12,246 nucleotides of DNA from a virus (taxonomy: Duplodnaviria > Heunggongvirae > Uroviricota > Caudoviricetes). The notes below the pieces were generated by a model. That model ran no database searches. It saw only the letters and a program-made list of their open reading frames with translations, and had not been told where the DNA came from. Location of the stretch: the IMG/VR virus record IMGVR_UViG_2695420793_000011; one strand, given 5' to 3'. The position numbers and the translations under genes are program-made. This document shows positions 1 through 4,480 of this stretch, in pieces. Numbering within the stretch: the first letter of the stretch is position 1; every line of letters starts with the position of its first letter.

Positions 1-220
1 AGAGACGCACGCGATAGCGTCCGTCCGGTACGATTTGCAGGTTGTCCAGTTCGGCAAGTTGTTGCTCTCCAAGCCAGACAGGTGGCACGTTATCGCCAGC
101 CAGTCGCCCGTCCTGTTCCTGCCACTGTTTCGCATGTGCCCACGCATCACTACCCGCAAAAATGATGACTTCCGTCATTTTGTCACGCGGCTGGTGTTTT
201 AAATTTGGCGCTTTTTTCAT
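1..220 (-). CDS. hypothetical protein, N-terminal 73 codons only; gene continues beyond window start
   Basis: Minus-strand ATG at 220-218 opens a frame reading MKKAPNLKHQPRDKMTEVIIFAGSDAWAHAKQWQEQDGRLAGDNVPPVWLGEQQLAELDNLQ... with E. coli-like codons and no stop before the window edge. The ATG overlaps the TGA stop of the upstream 99-aa ORF (ATGA), suggesting translational coupling. Not in the ORF track because it is open-ended. Function unknown. Confidence 0.45.
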   Translation of the reverse strand, partial: MKKAPNLKHQPRDKMTEVIIFAGSDAWAHAKQWQEQDGRLAGDNVPPVWLGEQQLAELDNLQIVPDGRYRVRL

Positions 221-516
221 TTCTGCTCTCTCCACGCGGCAATCATGTTTTTTAGTTCCTGTAGTTTTTTATCAACATCCATACATGACACATGGTTATT
301 TCTGGAAAGCGGGATTTCCCGCCTGAATCTGCTAATAAAGATCTCCACGTTCAGCGAACTAAGAAATGAATAGCCATCACGGATAAAATACACACGGTCA
401 AACATCAGTTCTTTTACCGTTACTCTGTTACCGTTCTTATCCAGATAAATAGCGCCGGGGATAATTTGGGGGTGTGCATAACCGCTGGCAGTCAAGCCAG
501 ATAAATACGTTCTCAT
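217..516 (-). CDS. hypothetical protein (99 aa), member of leftward small-gene operon
   Basis: ORF-track frame. It is in the same frame as the upstream 106-aa ORF, separated only by a TAA stop and two codons, and its stop overlaps the next start (ATGA). No family recognised. Confidence 0.5.
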   Translation of the reverse strand: MRTYLSGLTASGYAHPQIIPGAIYLDKNGNRVTVKELMFDRVYFIRDGYSFLSSLNVEIFISRFRREIPLSRNNHVSCMDVDKKLQELKNMIAAWREQK

Positions 517-522
517 GATTAT

Positions 523-843
523 TTATCCCCGATTTGAATCAGTATTCGCTTTCTTTATAGCATTTAATGCATCTGTGGCATTTTCAATGGTGCACCGTAA
601 CGAAATATCAAAATGTCCAAGCATTGCCAGTAACAAACCGATATTACCCATATCAATGCGCATGGCCTTTTCGTCATAGTCCTCATTTTCTGACGCATGC
701 CACATCAGGCTACCAATTGACGCAACAGCCATTGATATATTGTCAGTAGCCCCATCCGCAGCGGAATAAATCTTTTTAGCAATATCATGCTCACAGTTAA
801 AATGCGGATTAATCAGGTACTGGTAATTTGACATATCAGGCAT
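523..843 (-). CDS. hypothetical protein (106 aa), member of leftward small-gene operon
   Basis: ORF-track frame. Its ATG at 843-841 overlaps the stop of the upstream 67-aa frame (ATGCCTGA). No family recognised. Confidence 0.5.
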   Translation of the reverse strand: MPDMSNYQYLINPHFNCEHDIAKKIYSAADGATDNISMAVASIGSLMWHASENEDYDEKAMRIDMGNIGLLLAMLGHFDISLRCTIENATDALNAIKKANTDSNRG

Positions 844-1039
844 GGCACACCCCCTGACGAATACGGGCGGCGAATACCATCACGCAGCCAGCCGGGGATT
901 GCTGGCGTGCTTCCTGTTCGCTGGTGGCCACGATGTGAATCACGCGCGGTTGTGCGGTGCTCAGGGCGATAAAACGCCAGATGTATTTATTCAGGTTGTA
1001 CGAGTCCCGCCCTTGCGGGTGTATGGTATGATTTCTCAT
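836..1039 (-). CDS. hypothetical small protein (67 aa, MRNHTIHPQGRDSYNLNKYIWRF...), probable first gene of leftward operon
   Basis: This is the 3' portion of the 362-aa minus-strand track ORF. An internal ATG at 1039-1037 is preceded by GAGG about 8 nt upstream. The longer upstream extension runs through the AT-rich promoter region and antisense to better plus-strand genes. An alternative start at about 1132 is possible. Confidence 0.35.
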   Translation of the reverse strand: MRNHTIHPQGRDSYNLNKYIWRFIALSTAQPRVIHIVATSEQEARQQSPAGCVMVFAARIRQGVCHA

Positions 1040-1235
1040 AGCTGCCTCGATAATCTTGCTATCGTTGGTGGTTAGAAGCCCCGTTACTGCTCCTACAGTG
1101 CGGGGTTTCGTCGTTTCTGCACCTTGCATTAACAAGGTGTAAGTAACTTTATTTATAGGTGGCTTACATGTCAATGCTTTTATGTAAGACTTTTTATGTG
1201 TATATTGTCTTACACTTTCATTGAGAGGATTACAG
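1040..1235. promoter_or_regulatory. divergent promoter/operator region between the leftward small-gene operon and the rightward regulator-like genes
   Basis: AT-rich intergenic stretch with repeated TGTAAG(A/T)/CTTACA elements, including an inverted pair GTAAGAC...GTCTTAC around 1180-1215 and TTACATGTCAA at about 1164-1176. A short GC stem (CCCCG...CGGGG) at about 1080-1107 lies in the leftward leader. Confidence 0.45.
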
Positions 1236-1541
1236 ATGGCTACAGGTTCAAAAAACGCAAAATCACAATCACTGACAGCTCGGATCCCGCATGATGTTAT
1301 TGAAGGCATGGAATCCGTAAAACTGGACGGTGAAAGCAACGCCGGATTCATAGTAACCGCCATGCGCGGTGAAATCGCCCGCCGCCAGGCAGAAGGAAGC
1401 GGAGAAAACCTCCTGGTTTCTTCGCTCGATGCCCTAGCGCAGGTGGAAAAAATCGGAGTCAAAGCCGCCGAGGAGATCGGGCAACTCGTCACCGTCGCGC
1501 GTGAAGAACTCCAGCGACGCAAGGTCAAAGAGCAGGAATAG
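1236..1541 (+). CDS. small acidic protein, putative DNA-binding regulator of the island (family not confirmed)
   Basis: ATG at 1236 is preceded by GAGAGG at 1224-1229. Codon usage is E. coli-like and a strong intrinsic terminator follows the transcription unit. The N-terminal segment SLTARIPHDVIEGMESV is reminiscent of ribbon-helix-helix-type regulators, but this is an impression only. The track's longer start at 1221 lacks an SD. Confidence 0.5.
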   Translation: MATGSKNAKSQSLTARIPHDVIEGMESVKLDGESNAGFIVTAMRGEIARRQAEGSGENLLVSSLDALAQVEKIGVKAAEEIGQLVTVAREELQRRKVKEQE

Positions 1542-1598
1542 CCACTATCAGCGCCATAGTTTGAGGAACGCAGGCGCATTGCTTTACAGGACAGCACC

Positions 1599-1778
1599 AT
1601 GAGCGACACAGAATCAACCAAAACACCATCACCAACTCGTAAGAGACGACGCAAAAATATAGCGCATGAACATGAATCAGAAAGATTCGCACCTTGTTCG
1701 TTTGCTCTTGAGAAATTCCTTAAAGAGCACAGGAAAAAGCTCTCGTTGCAAACCTTGGAACGAACCAAATCTGACTGA
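1599..1778 (+). CDS. possible small basic protein (59 aa, MSDTESTKTPSPTRKRRRKNIAHEHESERF...)
   Basis: Found by manual translation; below the ORF-track size cutoff. It lies between the 1236-1541 gene and the plus-strand terminator. Weak SD and rare codons (AGA, CGA, AGG, ATA) make it uncertain. Confidence 0.25.
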   Translation: MSDTESTKTPSPTRKRRRKNIAHEHESERFAPCSFALEKFLKEHRKKLSLQTLERTKSD

Positions 1779-1845
1779 TCACATTGCCCACCAGCCGCAA
1801 ATGTGGCATTGTTGGCGATGCGTTCAAGTTTAGTGTGTATCCATT

Positions 1846-1877
1846 GGCGACCGCCCCCGGTCGCCTTTGTTTTATAT
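1846..1877 (+). terminator. intrinsic terminator for the rightward island transcription unit
   Basis: Perfect 8-bp GC-rich stem GGCGACCG / CGGTCGCC with CCCC loop (1846-1865), followed by TTTGTTTTATAT. Confidence 0.6.
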
Positions 1878-1892
1878 GTCATATGCTCCCCT

Positions 1893-2117
1893 TTACGCTG
1901 CCTTACCTGAATTAACGCGGTCACGGCTTTGCACCCAGTCCATAACTTCGGAAAGCAACCAGCCTACAGAACGCCCCCCAAGATTACGGCGAGACGGAAA
2001 GCCCCCTTTCTTCTCCAGTTCGTAGCGTGTAGTACGGCTGACGCCTGTTAACTTACGACATTCATCCTCACGAATTACGCGATCTGTTAGTGATTGAAAT
2101 TGTGTATTTTGATTCAT
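1893..2117 (-). CDS. alpA: AlpA-family phage/island transcriptional regulator (excisionase-like HTH)
   Basis: 74-aa translation with segment LTGVSRTTRYELEKKGGFPSRRNLGGRSVGWLLSEVMDWVQSR, matching the AlpA/Xis-type motif (GxSRsTiY...G.FP....lG.R.v.W...ev..W). Position downstream of a P4-type integrase is typical. Confidence 0.7.
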   Translation of the reverse strand: MNQNTQFQSLTDRVIREDECRKLTGVSRTTRYELEKKGGFPSRRNLGGRSVGWLLSEVMDWVQSRDRVNSGKAA

Positions 2118-2220: not shown

Positions 2221-3075
2221 TTAATTTTCATTAGATAAAATTTTTCTTATTTTTTCTAAAGAATCGCTGCGCATTATTTTTTCTAAGAAGGGTTTTACAG
2301 TCTGAACAATAGCAAAGGTGTCCTTTTCACCATCAGGATACAAAGATACGGCAAGCACCCCTAATGAAATTTTTCTATCTGTAGACAACTCCCAAGATAA
2401 TAAGTCAATTAATGGGATTATCTTATAATCAATAATTTTACGTCGTATGCTCTCCCAACTTCCTGCAATTGGTTTGTCTGGCTCAACAATTGAAAGTTCA
2501 CTACGCCATTTTGGTAATAGTTTTGTAAACGCTTCAATCAACTCATCATCTCTGTTATGTAGTAAGTCAACAGAAACAAGCATATTATCTAATGTATCAG
2601 AAAGGAGATTCACTGGTTCACGCATCACAGCCCAAAACATCCCATTATCTTCTGATATTAAACTTCCAACCATCTCATTATCTATGATGATTGGTTTATC
2701 CTTCCAATATCCTCTTTCCGCAGTCAGTTTATTAATCATTGATATATCAAACCTTGTTACAGGTTTAATTCCATCATCATAACTTAGCTCAATTAACTTC
2801 GGTTGCACTTTATGGTCATATTCTTTTTGTTTATCACAAAACCAATCGTCTTCTTTCAGCTCTCCAAATGGATCCCCGTAATTATTATGCAACGGGTATT
2901 CAGCACCAAACATAAATCCATATTCAGGCATCTCAGAATGTTTCATTGTTAAATCATCTTGTCGCCAATATAATTGGCGAAATAGATCTTTATCCGACAA
3001 GTTTTCTAGGCAATCATATTTGCCTAAATCAAATGACTTTGGTAAATCTTTTTTACTATTTACTTTTTTCGTCAT
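2221..3075 (-). CDS. hypothetical cytoplasmic protein (284 aa), AT-rich cargo gene between integrase and alpA; function unknown
   Basis: Long uninterrupted frame in visibly AT-rich DNA. Its ATG at 3075-3073 overlaps the integrase TGA stop at 3074-3072 (ATGA). No transmembrane segment or catalytic motif recognised by eye. Confidence 0.65.
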   Translation of the reverse strand: MTKKVNSKKDLPKSFDLGKYDCLENLSDKDLFRQLYWRQDDLTMKHSEMPEYGFMFGAEYPLHNNYGDPFGELKEDDWFCDKQKEYDHKVQPKLIELSYDDGIKPVTRFDISMINKLTAERGYWKDKPIIIDNEMVGSLISEDNGMFWAVMREPVNLLSDTLDNMLVSVDLLHNRDDELIEAFTKLLPKWRSELSIVEPDKPIAGSWESIRRKIIDYKIIPLIDLLSWELSTDRKISLGVLAVSLYPDGEKDTFAIVQTVKPFLEKIMRSDSLEKIRKILSNEN

Positions 3076-4292
3076 TGTATCCCTCTCAATATCACAATAT
3101 TTTCATTATATCCTGCAATCATATCAAGACGCTCAACCCATAGATTCAGTGCGTCCCGTTTCGCCTGCAAATAGCGTGAATGGTTATAGGTTTTTTGCTG
3201 ACCTGGCATCTGATGCGCTGTGATGTGCTCCACGATATGCGGATCGACACCTAAATCATTCAGCATAGTTGTAAACGTGTGTCGGAAATCATGCAGCGTC
3301 CAGTGTTCCTGCTTAAGCCGCTTATGCGCATTTCGTCCATATTGCGCCACCGTGGTATCTTTTTTCAGTTCGCCGAGTAATAACCCAGTGTGTGCGTTTT
3401 GCTCCACCAGCTTCTGAATGAACGGCAAAATACCATCAGGAATAGGTCGGAATATTGTTACCTTCGTTTTGCTGTGCTCTTTTGGCACTGTCCACAACAT
3501 TTCTTTCAGGTCCCATTCTTTGATCTCTGAAAGTCTGATCTCTGCCGTTCTGCACCCGAACACAATTAACAAGCGCATTAACGCACTGTAATAGGGAGCG
3601 AACACATCACCATCAATAGCGCGTAGAATTTCTTTTAGTTCGCTGTTGCTGTGCACTCTCTCGCGGATTTCTGCTCTCTTACCCACATCAGTAACGATCA
3701 AATCGTCCAGGGCGTTGCTAAACGCGTAGCGCCGCCTGCGGCAAAACTTTAGCGCCTGTTTGCATGTCTGCATGACATGGCCCGCTGCTACTGGTGCTTT
3801 TTTTCGTACGCGGTCAAAACATGCGATCCACTGCCTTGTATCACACTTATCAAGGGGAATTGCCCCAATATGGCAAATGATGTGCTTATCCATACGCTGC
3901 ACCAGCTTTATGTAATCTTTGCGGTTATCCTTCGCGTATTCCTCCAGCCAGTAGTTAATCGCTTCCTTCACCGTAACGGGTTTTAGTGCTTCCTGTACTG
4001 TGGCGCACAACTCATAACGGGGGTTTTTACCCTCAGCCAGCCATGCCCGGCACAGTGTGCGTTTTTCCCTTGCGGCTTTCAGCGACAATTCAGGGTAAGC
4101 CCCCAGCTTTAACCGCTCTGCGGCAACCTCACGGCCTCCCGTTCGGTACCGGAAATACCAGGTTAATTTGCCGCCCTTTGAGTGTTTAATCTCCAGCCCG
4201 CCCCCGTCGGAGTAAAAACGCTCTTTTTCTGCCTGGACAGCCGCCAATTTTTTTAACGTCGAATCGCTCAGTTTGTTTAGTGCTTTTCCCAC
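3072..4292 (-). CDS. int: P4-type tyrosine site-specific integrase
   Basis: 406 aa. The N-terminal arm-binding-type region (DGGGLEIKHSKGGKLTWYFRYRTGGREVAAERLKLGAYPELSLKAAREKR) resembles P4/CP4-57 integrases. The C-terminus has the HxxR box (HDFRHTF) and a candidate catalytic Tyr (KTYNHSRY). GTG start at 4292 with AGAGGA about 9 nt upstream. Confidence 0.85.
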   Translation of the reverse strand: MGKALNKLSDSTLKKLAAVQAEKERFYSDGGGLEIKHSKGGKLTWYFRYRTGGREVAAERLKLGAYPELSLKAAREKRTLCRAWLAEGKNPRYELCATVQEALKPVTVKEAINYWLEEYAKDNRKDYIKLVQRMDKHIICHIGAIPLDKCDTRQWIACFDRVRKKAPVAAGHVMQTCKQALKFCRRRRYAFSNALDDLIVTDVGKRAEIRERVHSNSELKEILRAIDGDVFAPYYSALMRLLIVFGCRTAEIRLSEIKEWDLKEMLWTVPKEHSKTKVTIFRPIPDGILPFIQKLVEQNAHTGLLLGELKKDTTVAQYGRNAHKRLKQEHWTLHDFRHTFTTMLNDLGVDPHIVEHITAHQMPGQQKTYNHSRYLQAKRDALNLWVERLDMIAGYNENIVILRGIQ

Positions 4293-4328
4293 TATCAGAT
4301 CCTCTTTTCAGTCCTCCAGCCTCAAAAA

Positions 4329-4352
4329 ACTGACCACACAACTGACCACACA
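4329..4352. repeat. tandem direct repeat (A)CTGACCACACA x2 immediately upstream of int
   Basis: Two 11-bp units CTGACCACACA at 4330-4340 and 4342-4352, 12-bp period. Followed at 4369-4386 by CGAACAAC x2 with 10-bp period, within an ACAA-rich tract. Confidence 0.5.
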
Positions 4353-4480
4353 TTTTGTTGAAGCTCTACGAACAACGACGAACAACAACAAACAAGAAAA
4401 CAGGATAATTTATTGTTTATCAAATACATACATAAACAACCACAAGCAACCCCGAACCACAAAAAACACTAAATGAGAAA

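What the first reader, a model, noticed from the sequence alone, without database searches (positions are those of the whole stretch)
1..1039. Leftward operon of four tightly overlapping small genes of unknown function
Four consecutive minus-strand frames are joined by overlapping stop/start codons (ATGCCTGA at 836-843, ATGA at 217-220). This layout is typical of co-translated phage or island modules. None of the products is recognisable to me. The partial last gene has good codon usage and runs off the window, so the module is incomplete here. It could be replication or interference machinery of a satellite-like island.
Basis: partly seen in the sequence, partly recalled or inferred. Interest (0 to 1): 0.6.

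Follow-up and report, generated by a model that had tools for sequence, protein, structure and literature searches.

The report
Phage-satellite (PICI) replication operon
The four leftward genes are the early/replication operon of a common E. coli phage-inducible chromosomal island: an Icd-like gene, an uncharacterised 106-aa gene, an RgdR-family gene and the start of the island's replicase. This is an ordinary member of a known kind of phage satellite, but its control region suggests a repressor switch I did not find described.

Summary
Four consecutive minus-strand genes lie at 836-1039, 523-843, 217-516 and 1-220. The 8-nt (ATGCCTGA) and 4-nt (ATGA) overlaps are where stated. The middle junction is a 6-nt spacer, not an overlap, and the last gene is a 605-aa replicase, not a small gene.

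Three products are recognisable:
- an Icd-like protein;
- a DUF4222 protein of the RgdR family;
- a replicase with the P4-alpha helicase and origin-binding parts behind a different N-terminal domain.

The 106-aa protein belongs to a small Enterobacterales family with no known function.

The window is 100% identical to E. coli chromosomes. There the genes lie in a 10.4-kb island (integrase, AlpA, replicase, iterons, capsid/TerS genes) between thiM and rcnR. Gene order matches the experimentally studied satellite EcCICFT073. The same layout recurs in 112 of 125 related loci, and DUF4222 overlaps the replicase by 4 nt in 111 of those 112.

Beyond the finding, the promoter region (1136-1214) carries repeats that co-vary with a divergent YlcI/YnfO protein. 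The 100-nt leader holds a hairpin with strong covariation.

The parts
836..1039 (-). Icd-like gene (67 aa), first gene of the operon
   Evidence: NCBIfam NF033153 phage_ICD_like, 5.3e-20, 71 bits against a cut-off of 25. 37% identity over 43 aa to phage P1 Icd, pairwise E 6e-7. 92% identical to the Icd-like protein of EcCICFT073. A GAGG Shine-Dalgarno sequence at 1048-1045 precedes ATG 1039 (read).
523..843 (-). ORF106, an uncharacterised 106-aa protein. Its start overlaps the icd stop by 8 nt.
   Evidence: No Pfam, NCBIfam or PADLOC hit; only phrog_15327, of unknown function. The family has about 135 clusters, and every named member comes from Enterobacterales. The AF2 model is a long helical hairpin, pLDDT 80, with no significant PDB fold match. 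Variable sites by codon position are 16/7/19.
217..516 (-). DUF4222 / RgdR-family gene (99 aa). It lies 6 nt after the ORF106 stop, and its own stop overlaps the replicase start (ATGA).
1..220 (-). First 73 codons of the 605-aa replicase. This is the N-terminal domain shared by three PICI replicase types.
   Evidence: The full gene is on the identical chromosome. Pfam finds D5_N, DUF5906 and Pox_D5. The C-terminus matches the P4 origin-binding domain 1KA8, 1.8e-24. Residues 145-595 are 51% identical to P4 alpha. The N-terminal ~140 residues are 69% and 50% identical to those of RepA-type and DUF927-type replicases.
1040..1139 (-). Non-coding 5' leader of the operon with three hairpins: HP1 1120-1139, HP2 1077-1107, HP3 1048-1064
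   Evidence: The MFE fold gives the three hairpins, z = -3.1. In HP2, 10 of 12 pairs change on both sides and none on one side, across 89 distinct leaders. Frame-breaking indels and the lack of codon periodicity show it is not coding.
1146..1174 (-). Sigma-70-type promoter of the operon: TTGACA-N17-TAAAGT
   Evidence: The consensus scan gives 10 of 12 matches. The hexamers stay aligned across diverged islands. The block conserved in many E. coli genomes ends at about 1140.
1136..1214 (.). Four copies of the TGTAAG(A/C)C half-site (1136-1143, 1161-1168, 1183-1190, 1207-1214) in two inverted pairs. One pair brackets the -10 of the operon promoter. The other brackets a TATATT (1201-1206, + strand) upstream of ylcI.
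   Evidence: Repeat search. The island-specific repeat type tracks the YlcI allele one-to-one.
1236..1541 (+). Divergent YlcI/YnfO-family gene (101 aa), the candidate repressor of the operon promoter
   Evidence: NF041551, 4.7e-20. 61% identical to the equivalent gene of EcCICFT073. The N-terminus aligns in register with the Arc repressor beta-strand and helix A, hhalign probability 36%. The beta-strand allele tracks the operator type.
1599..1778 (+). Unannotated 59-aa ORF with an arginine-rich motif, downstream of ylcI
   Evidence: phrog_21027, 5e-15. 68% identical to an annotated 57-aa protein at the same place in EcCICFT073.
1846..1875 (+). Intrinsic-terminator-like hairpin with a T-run, ending the + strand ylcI-orf59 unit. 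There is no T-run on the minus strand.
   Evidence: Terminator scan and the sequence read.
1893..2117 (-). AlpA-family regulator gene
   Evidence: PF05930, 4.8e-16. 66% identical to AlpA of EcCICFT073.
3072..4292 (-). Tyrosine integrase of the island
   Evidence: Arm-DNA-bind_3 and Phage_integrase domains. 66% identical to the EcCICFT073 integrase.
4326..4395 (.). Right-hand 70-nt att direct repeat at the island boundary
   Evidence: A 94%-identical direct repeat lies 10,377 nt away on the identical chromosome: L001 5949-6018 and 16326-16395.

Best explanation
Window 1-1039 holds the promoter-proximal part of the early (replication) operon of a Gram-negative phage-inducible chromosomal island (PICI), of the same type as EcCICFT073. 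The island is 10.4 kb and sits between thiM and rcnR in E. coli.

The operon reads icd-like, ORF106, DUF4222 (RgdR family), replicase, followed by origin iterons that lie outside the window.

Shown:
- the gene identities, the synteny with a validated PICI and the att repeats;
- the conserved stop/start overlaps;
- a near-consensus sigma-70 promoter at 1174-1146;
- a conserved, non-coding, structured 100-nt leader.

Inferred:
- The genes are translated as a coupled train. In particular, the DUF4222 protein and the replicase would be made in fixed proportion through the ATGA overlap.
- In the quiescent island, the divergently encoded YlcI/YnfO protein binds the TGTAAG half-sites that bracket the -10 element and keeps the operon off.
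- After helper-phage induction, AlpA-driven transcription from upstream reads through, antisense to ylcI, into the operon.
- The replicase (helicase plus P4-type origin-binding domain) then replicates the excised island from the iterons.
- The Icd-like product may delay cell division, as P1 Icd does. Its translation may also be needed for expression of the genes behind it, as reported for P1 icd and ant.
- ORF106 occupies a variable slot of small genes. It is most likely an accessory protein-binding factor acting on the host or the helper phage. Its role is unknown.
For: Identity and context:
- The window is 100% identical to E. coli chromosomes. Their annotation gives int, DUF6387, HTH (AlpA), YlcI/YnfO, Icd-like, hypothetical, DUF4222, DNA primase family, protease/capsid fusion and DUF1441 between thiM and rcnR.
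- A 70-nt att repeat flanks the island, and GGTGAACAGT iterons lie just past the replicase stop.

Synteny with EcCICFT073:
- Icd 92%, Pri-Rep 48% over full length, AlpA 66%, Int 66%, YlcI 61% identity.
- In that element alpA, int and pri-rep were shown to be needed for induction, replication and transfer (PMC6092414).
- That paper also states that all analysed E. coli PICIs encode RgdR.

The replicase is 51% identical to P4 alpha over residues 145-595, and its C-terminus matches the P4 origin-binding domain 1KA8.

Recurrence of the layout:
- 112 of 125 loci are complete.
- The DUF4222-replicase overlap of 4 nt is present in 111 of 112.
- One to five variable small ORFs lie between icd and DUF4222.
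- Three replicase types occur.

Coding status is supported by codon-position bias. Promoter. Leader fold and covariation. Operator type tracks the YlcI allele. The + strand terminator is unidirectional. The four-zone PICI organisation is described in PMC10111431.
Against: - No experiment on this island exists. Induction, excision, replication and packaging are all inferred by homology.
- The late region is short: only a protease/capsid fusion, a TerS-like gene and one small gene. The island could therefore be a defective derivative.
- Gram-negative PICIs are described in the literature as transcribed in one direction and without a known repressor. The proposed YlcI switch goes beyond that description.
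- The YlcI ribbon-helix-helix assignment is weak (hhalign probability 36%; no PDB sequence hit).
- YlcI and its operators are physically adjacent, so part of their association could be linkage.
- The Icd-like protein lacks the C4 antisense RNA that accompanies P1 icd, and PHROGs labels the family 'transcriptional repressor'. Its function is therefore uncertain.
- The replicase lacks the P4 primase domain, so the name 'primase' may not describe its activity.
Confidence: 0.85

Rival explanations
1. It is the left (PLE) operon of a P4-type satellite. In that case immunity would work through a CI RNA and the alpha primase-helicase would replicate the element.
For: The replicase is 51% identical to P4 alpha over residues 145-595, and its C-terminus matches the P4 origin-binding domain. 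The island has an integrase and an AlpA/Vis-like regulator. OI-51-type islands have been described as having P4 ancestry (PMC3378721).
Against: The annotation of the identical chromosome names no psu, delta or sid gene, and the three genes beyond the replicase match protease/capsid, TerS-like and unknown families instead. No C4, CI or isrK RNA was found, even in a relaxed local scan. The N-terminal 144 residues do not match the P4 alpha primase domain, and TIGR01613 scores below its cut-off (95 against 108.7 bits). Gene order matches EcCICFT073 instead.
Confidence: 0.04
2. It is a decayed, immobile remnant of such a satellite or of a prophage. The operon would then be retained only for a host-beneficial regulator such as the RgdR-like protein, not for replication.
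For: The late region is minimal. RgdR homologues have host-regulatory effects on type III secretion and motility (PMC3378721). There is no experimental evidence that this island moves.
Against: All genes are intact, and the att repeats are 94% identical. The iterons are present. The replicase N-terminus shows strong third-position bias, 11/11/42. Closely similar modules sit at several different chromosomal sites and occur up to six times per genome, which indicates recent mobility.
Confidence: 0.08
3. The small genes form an anti-phage defence or toxin-antitoxin module carried as cargo, unrelated to replication.
For: Satellites often carry defence cargo. ORF106 and the neighbouring slot are highly variable between islands. 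Icd-type proteins can be toxic to the host (P1 annotation).
Against: No PADLOC model matches any of them. They lie inside the conserved icd-to-replicase transcription unit and are joined to it by overlaps. The known PICI cargo positions are elsewhere.
Confidence: 0.03

Closest known systems
EcCICFT073 (= O-island 51 / CP-933C type), the prototype Gram-negative PICI (Fillol-Salom et al. 2018, PMC6092414)
   Same: The gene order is the same: int, alpA, a divergent ylcI plus small ORF, icd-like, small overlapping genes, DUF4222 (C1493/RgdR), replicase, then late genes. Identities are Icd 92%, Pri-Rep 48%, AlpA 66%, Int 66% and YlcI 61%. The DUF4222-replicase ATGA overlap is the same.
   Different: The integration site differs (thiM-rcnR intergenic region rather than near roxA/phoQ). 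One ORF106 gene replaces four unrelated 73-77-aa genes. The DUF4222 protein is only 33% identical and lacks the RGD motif. The late region has a protease/capsid fusion and a TerS-like gene instead of capsid plus decoration genes. A DUF6387 gene lies next to int.
Phage P1 immI operon (c4 RNA, icd, ant1/ant2)
   Same: A short Icd homologue (37% identity over 43 aa) heads an operon, is preceded by a structured leader, and overlaps the next gene. In P1, icd and ant1 overlap by 4 nt, and icd is annotated as apparently required for ant expression.
   Different: No C4 RNA and no target sites for it are detectable. The downstream genes are replication genes, not an antirepressor.
Satellite phage P4 alpha protein and left operon
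   Same: The helicase and the winged-helix origin-binding domain are homologous. The replicase is the last gene of an early leftward operon.
   Different: The P4 primase domain is replaced by a ~140-aa domain shared with the RepA-type and DUF927-type PICI replicases. There is no CI RNA and no annotated psu, sid or delta gene.
RgdR (ECs1581), prophage-encoded regulator of the LEE in E. coli O157:H7 (Flockhart et al. 2012, PMC3378721)
   Same: Same Pfam family (DUF4222), same 99-aa length, and the same position immediately upstream of and overlapping the replicase gene.
   Different: Only 33% identical. PGA replaces the RGD motif at residues 20-22. The regulatory activity has not been tested.

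Membership tests
Gram-negative PICI (Fillol-Salom 2018) | Integrase at one end and flanking att repeats at a dedicated chromosomal site | tested here: met
   The integrase is at 3072-4292. A 70-nt direct repeat flanks 10.4 kb. Whether prophages ever use this site was not tested.
Gram-negative PICI (Fillol-Salom 2018) | AlpA-family regulator next to int | tested here: met
   PF05930, 4.8e-16. 66% identity to EcCICFT073 AlpA.
Gram-negative PICI (Fillol-Salom 2018) | Pri-Rep replicase followed by an origin with iterons | tested here: met
   48% full-length identity to the EcCICFT073 Pri-Rep. GGTGAACAGT repeats lie within 200 nt past the replicase stop.
Gram-negative PICI (Fillol-Salom 2018) | Small size (about 10-17 kb) without lysis, tail or large-terminase genes | tested here: met
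   The island is 10.4 kb. The only late genes are a protease/capsid fusion, a TerS-like gene and a 93-aa ORF.
Gram-negative PICI (Fillol-Salom 2018) | Unidirectional transcription | tested here: not met
   A two-gene unit (ylcI, orf59) with its own terminator lies on the opposite strand. The same unit is present in EcCICFT073 itself, so the criterion appears to reflect older annotation.
Gram-negative PICI (Fillol-Salom 2018) | Induction by a helper phage and packaging in helper-derived particles | not testable with these tools
   This needs experiments.
Icd (phage P1 cell-division inhibitor) | Sequence membership | tested here: met
   NF033153, 71 bits against a cut-off of 25. 37% identity to P1 Icd.
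Icd (phage P1 cell-division inhibitor) | Control by an upstream C4-type antisense RNA | tested here: not met
   No C4 or isrK hit in the whole window at E <= 1 or in 1000-1260 at E <= 10.
Icd (phage P1 cell-division inhibitor) | Inhibition of host cell division | not testable with these tools
   This needs an overexpression and filamentation assay.
RgdR / DUF4222 | DUF4222 domain | tested here: met
   PF13973, 1.4e-16, 60 bits against a cut-off of 27.
RgdR / DUF4222 | RGD motif at residues 20-22, shown to matter for LEE activation | tested here: not met
   PGA aligns with RGD. The role of the motif is described in PMC3378721.
P4 alpha-type primase-helicase | D5_N plus SF3-type helicase plus C-terminal winged-helix origin-binding domain | tested here: met
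   Pfam D5_N, DUF5906 and Pox_D5. 1KA8 match, 1.8e-24. 51% identity to P4 alpha residues.
P4 alpha-type primase-helicase | N-terminal primase domain of P4 alpha | tested here: not met
   The tblastn match to P4 starts at residue 145. Residues 1-139 match only phrog_2850, of unknown function. TIGR01613 scores below its cut-off.
P4-like satellite | psu, delta and sid capsid-hijacking genes and a CI immunity RNA | tested here: not met
   The annotation of the island names none of these genes, and the three genes past the replicase match other families. No CI/C4 RNA was found.
Ribbon-helix-helix repressors (Arc/MetJ/CopG), considered for YlcI | N-terminal beta-strand, helix A, G-x-S/T turn, helix B | tested here: inconclusive
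   hhalign aligns YlcI residues 9-31 with Arc residues 6-28 in register, probability 36%. Mnt gives probability 1.7%. There is no PDB sequence hit.

The most novel reading that the evidence does not exclude
EcCICFT073-type Gram-negative PICIs, so far described as lacking a repressor and depending on the activator AlpA, may carry an immunity-like switch that I did not find described.
- A divergently transcribed small DNA-binding protein of the YlcI/YnfO family, probably ribbon-helix-helix, has allele-specific half-sites. These bracket the -10 elements of its own promoter and of the strong promoter of the icd-rgdR-replicase operon.
- A conserved structured leader follows the operon promoter.
- AlpA-driven read-through, antisense to ylcI, would flip the switch.

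In the same reading, the variable small genes behind icd (here ORF106) would be helper- or host-specific takeover factors. The Tudor-like RgdR proteins would act with the shared N-terminal domain of the replicases, or on RNA polymerase.
Probability: 0.35. Interest if true: 0.6.

Novelty: new member of a known kind. Interest (0 to 1): 0.33.

Why it matters
As given, the finding is ordinary. It is the replication operon of a very common class of E. coli phage satellites. Matches to part of it occur in about a third of complete E. coli genomes, and RefSeq already annotates the genes.

Its value is as a clean example of the conserved icd-to-replicase architecture. Three open points about Gram-negative PICIs can be tested on it:
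- Is there a repressor? YlcI/YnfO is a candidate, with operators that co-vary with its allele.
- What does the conserved leader hairpin do?
- Why is an RgdR-family protein, known only as a virulence regulator, always translationally coupled to the replicase, whichever of the three helicase types follows?

ORF106 also shows that a whole family is mis-named 'ubiquinol-cytochrome C reductase' in public databases.

Tried and rejected
- **C4/CI/isrK antisense RNA upstream of icd.** Nothing was found in the whole-window Rfam scan at E <= 1 or in a local scan at E <= 10.
- **Giant TPR and Ig-repeat proteins** that scored against ORF106 in the exhaustive search. They are repeat-driven artefacts.
- **tblastn of ORF106 and DUF4222 against deposited phage genomes.** No match.
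- **Fold search of the ORF106 model.** Only generic helical hairpins (spectrin repeat, EsxB, UvsY), none significant.
- **The 362-codon open frame running from 1924 into icd, as a possible Eta/Ash-like long protein.** Rejected: no family hits, frame-breaking indels between islands and no codon periodicity in the leader.
- **Defence-system models.** None matched.
- **Genome-collection scan for ORF106 relatives.** Only three loci were found, and a first attempt failed for lack of a conserved stretch.
- **Sequence search of a YlcI profile against the PDB.** No ribbon-helix-helix hit.
- **The idea that ORF106 always directly follows icd.** Wrong for distant members. The upstream 58-63-aa genes in Klebsiella, Erwinia and one metagenomic locus are not Icd-like, and in Erwinia the icd gene lies two genes upstream.
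- **A resemblance of GCTTCTAACCACC plus hairpin HP3 to a boxA/boxB nut site.** Seen by eye only, not tested and not relied on.
Full report
**Observation.** The minus strand of 1-1039 carries four consecutive open frames: 836-1039, 523-843, 217-516 and 1-220, the last running off the window.
- ATGCCTGA lies at 843..836. The start of the second gene lies 8 nt before the end of the first.
- ATGA lies at 220..217. The start of the fourth gene overlaps the stop of the third.
- The junction between the second and third genes is a 6-nt spacer (TAA at 525-523, ATG at 516), not an overlap.

The first frame stays open upstream to 1924 (362 codons), but the real start is ATG 1039, preceded by GAGG. The upstream extension has no family match. 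It is interrupted by frame-breaking indels in related islands and shows no codon periodicity (14/11/11 variable sites by codon position).

The four genes do show coding-type substitution patterns: 31/29/44, 16/7/19, 11/4/18 and 11/11/42.

**Where it is.** The window is 100% identical to several E. coli chromosomes. Parts of 1-2200 match 1830 of 5426 complete genomes, and 410 genomes carry at least 80% of 1-1240.

On strain Ecol_224 the genes lie in an island between thiM and rcnR. Its annotation reads integrase, DUF6387, helix-turn-helix (AlpA), YlcI/YnfO on the opposite strand, Icd-like, hypothetical, DUF4222, DNA primase family (605 aa), ClpP-like protease/major-capsid fusion, DUF1441 and a 93-aa protein.

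A 70-nt direct repeat, 94% identical, flanks 10.4 kb. Its right copy is at window 4326-4395. Five GGTGAACAGT-type iterons lie within 200 nt past the replicase stop. The rest of the window (rcnRAB, yehA-E) is housekeeping DNA.

**The four products.**
1. *Icd-like, 67 aa.* It scores 71 bits on NF033153 against a cut-off of 25. It is 37% identical over 43 aa to phage P1 Icd.
2. *ORF106.* It has no Pfam, NCBIfam or PADLOC match.
   - A word-indexed search found only close relatives; all the named ones are from E. coli. An exhaustive search added a handful of distant ~100-aa proteins.
   - A profile search found about 135 clusters. Every named one is from Enterobacterales, and many carry the inherited name 'ubiquinol-cytochrome C reductase'. 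I regard that name as spurious, because these small proteins match no Pfam or NCBIfam family.
   - The model is a long two-helix hairpin (pLDDT 80) with no informative fold match.
3. *DUF4222, 99 aa* (PF13973).
   - It is 33% identical to RgdR/ECs1581 of the O157:H7 island CP-933C, and has the same length and position.
   - RgdR activates LEE1, represses motility and binds DNA non-specifically (PMC3378721). Fillol-Salom et al. state that RgdR is encoded by all E. coli PICIs they analysed.
   - The protein here has PGA where RgdR has RGD.
4. *Replicase.*
   - It contains D5_N, DUF5906 and Pox_D5.
   - Residues 145-595 are 51% identical to P4 alpha.
   - The C-terminus matches the solved P4 origin-binding domain 1KA8.
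   - The first ~140 residues, of which the window holds 73, do not match the P4 primase domain. They are shared (69% and 50% identity) with RepA-type and DUF927-type replicases of related islands.

**Synteny.** The validated satellite EcCICFT073 has the same order: int, alpA, a divergent small ORF plus ylcI, icd-like, four small genes, DUF4222 (C1493), Pri-Rep, then late genes. Identities are Icd 92%, Pri-Rep 48% over full length, AlpA 66%, Int 66%, YlcI 61% and orf59 68%. CP-933C and other E. coli islands agree.

I collected 125 loci through a conserved leader motif.
- 112 have the complete chain from icd to DUF4222 to replicase.
- One to five variable small ORFs lie between icd and DUF4222.
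- The 4-nt DUF4222-replicase overlap is present in 111 of 112.
- There are three replicase types: 66 D5-type, 26 RepA-type and 20 DUF927-type.
- At least 305 of 463 junctions overlap.

ORF106 relatives in Klebsiella, Erwinia and a metagenomic locus sit in the same small-gene block. The Klebsiella island is inserted among phage head and tail genes, the Erwinia one is a classical PICI, and the third is a capsid-forming PICI. There they do not always lie directly behind icd.

This matches the published four-zone PICI organisation: Integration, Bro, Replication, Late (PMC10111431). P4-type membership fails. The chromosome annotation names no psu, sid or delta gene, no CI RNA was found, and the replicase has no P4 primase domain.

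**Control region (adjacent to the finding).**

*Promoter.* A near-consensus sigma-70 promoter, TTGACA-N17-TAAAGT, lies at 1174-1146 on the minus strand. It is conserved in position across diverged islands.

*Leader.* The 100-nt leader folds into three hairpins (z = -3.1). In 89 distinct leaders, hairpin HP2 (1077-1107) has 10 of 12 pairs changed on both sides and none changed on one side only. It is 84% paired, against 26-41% for the whole structure when the partners are slid. Cells count sequences, not independent events, and the alleles recombine, so this is strong but not phylogenetically corrected evidence. HP3 abuts the Shine-Dalgarno sequence; it is invariant in this set because the search motif overlaps it.

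*Operators and YlcI.*
- Four TGTAAG(A/C)C half-sites form two inverted pairs. One pair brackets the -10 of the operon promoter. The other brackets a TATATT upstream of ylcI (and by eye).
- Every related island has repeats at the same places but with its own core sequence.
- That core tracks, one-to-one across at least 11 types, residues in the predicted N-terminal beta-strand of the divergent YlcI/YnfO protein.
- The HP2 allele, which lies on the other side of the operators, is shuffled relative to the YlcI type.
- hhalign places the most variable YlcI positions (12 and 14, beside the invariant R16) opposite Arc residues Q9, N11 and R13 (probability 36%). From my own knowledge, these are the residues with which Arc contacts DNA bases.
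- The held literature contains nothing on YlcI/YnfO function.

*Terminator.* The + strand unit (ylcI, a 59-aa arginine-rich ORF, terminator at 1846-1875) ends in a terminator with no T-run on the minus strand. Transcription from alpA can therefore run through it, antisense, into the operon.

**Mechanism.**

*Shown:* the identity, architecture and conservation described above.

*Inferred:*
- The four genes are translated as a coupled train.
- YlcI keeps the operon promoter off in the quiescent island.
- Helper-induced AlpA activates leftward transcription. AlpA is an activator in EcCICFT073.
- The replicase then fires the iteron origin.
- Icd-like may delay division. Its translation may also be needed for downstream expression, as annotated for P1 icd and ant.
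- The roles of ORF106 and the DUF4222 protein in the satellite cycle are unknown.

**Verdict.** The regulatory observations are the only part with some novelty, and they need experiments.

Noticed in passing
window 1136-1214 and 1236-1541: Four TGTAAG(A/C)C half-sites form two inverted pairs that bracket -10 elements. In related islands the repeat core differs and tracks the beta-strand residues of the divergent YlcI/YnfO protein one-to-one across at least 11 types. YlcI is therefore a candidate repressor in a satellite class described as lacking one.
   Followed up: yes
window 1040-1139 (minus strand): The conserved non-coding leader has three hairpins. HP2 (1077-1107) shows changes on both sides at 10 of 12 pairs across 89 distinct leaders. 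No Rfam family matches it. GCTTCTAACCACC followed by hairpin HP3, whose loop is purine-rich in most alleles, loosely resembles a boxA/boxB site by eye.
   Followed up: partly
window 1599-1778 (+ strand): An unannotated 59-aa ORF with the arginine-rich motif TRKRRRK lies downstream of ylcI. It matches phrog_21027 (5e-15) and is 68% identical to an annotated 57-aa protein at the same place in EcCICFT073. A unidirectional terminator follows at 1846-1875.
   Followed up: partly
window 836-1924 (minus strand): A 362-codon open frame is in phase with icd. It starts within the end of alpA and has a good internal SD+ATG at 1882. It runs antisense through orf59 and ylcI. It has no homologues, and the leader part is demonstrably non-coding. 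Why the frame is this long remains unexplained.
   Followed up: partly
window 1-220 and L001:11800-12220: Three different replicase bodies (D5/SF3-type, RepA-type, DUF927-type) carry the same ~120-140-aa N-terminal domain. All are preceded by a DUF4222 gene with an ATGA overlap. The domain matches only phrog_2850, of unknown function.
   Followed up: partly
L001:10212-10400, and L001:7398-7477 with 9934-10013 (outside the window): Five GGTGAACAGT-type iterons lie just past the replicase stop and are the likely origin. Separately, an 80-nt direct repeat (91% identical) has one copy upstream of the capsid gene and one past the origin.
   Followed up: no
window 2221-3075: A DUF6387 gene (284 aa) overlaps the integrase stop by 4 nt, between int and alpA. 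It has no defence-model hit. It may be island cargo.
   Followed up: no
proteins P0036-P0128: Many ORF106-family proteins of Klebsiella, Raoultella, Erwinia and Phytobacter are named 'ubiquinol-cytochrome C reductase' in NCBI and UniRef. These ~105-aa satellite proteins match no such family, so the name looks like a propagated mis-annotation.
   Followed up: partly
L002/L003:1-14321 (Klebsiella): An ORF106-bearing island with its own integrase sits between a truncated major-capsid gene and the tail genes of a prophage. This looks like the helper-embedded PICI configuration described by Mageeney et al.
   Followed up: no
L137 (LR881103.1, 'Escherichia phage vB_KppS-Ant', 16.5 kb): This record is deposited as a phage. 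It carries int, a regulator, a region with Icd-like similarity, a replicase 75% identical to this one, and capsid, portal and terminase genes. That is the gene content of a capsid-forming PICI.
   Followed up: no
window 11541-11588: An AT-rich perfect palindrome (AAAGCCGAAATCATTTATATAAATGATTTCGGCTTT) lies between yehD and yehE. It is probably a bidirectional terminator. It is the source of the spurious microRNA/snoRNA Rfam hits.
   Followed up: no
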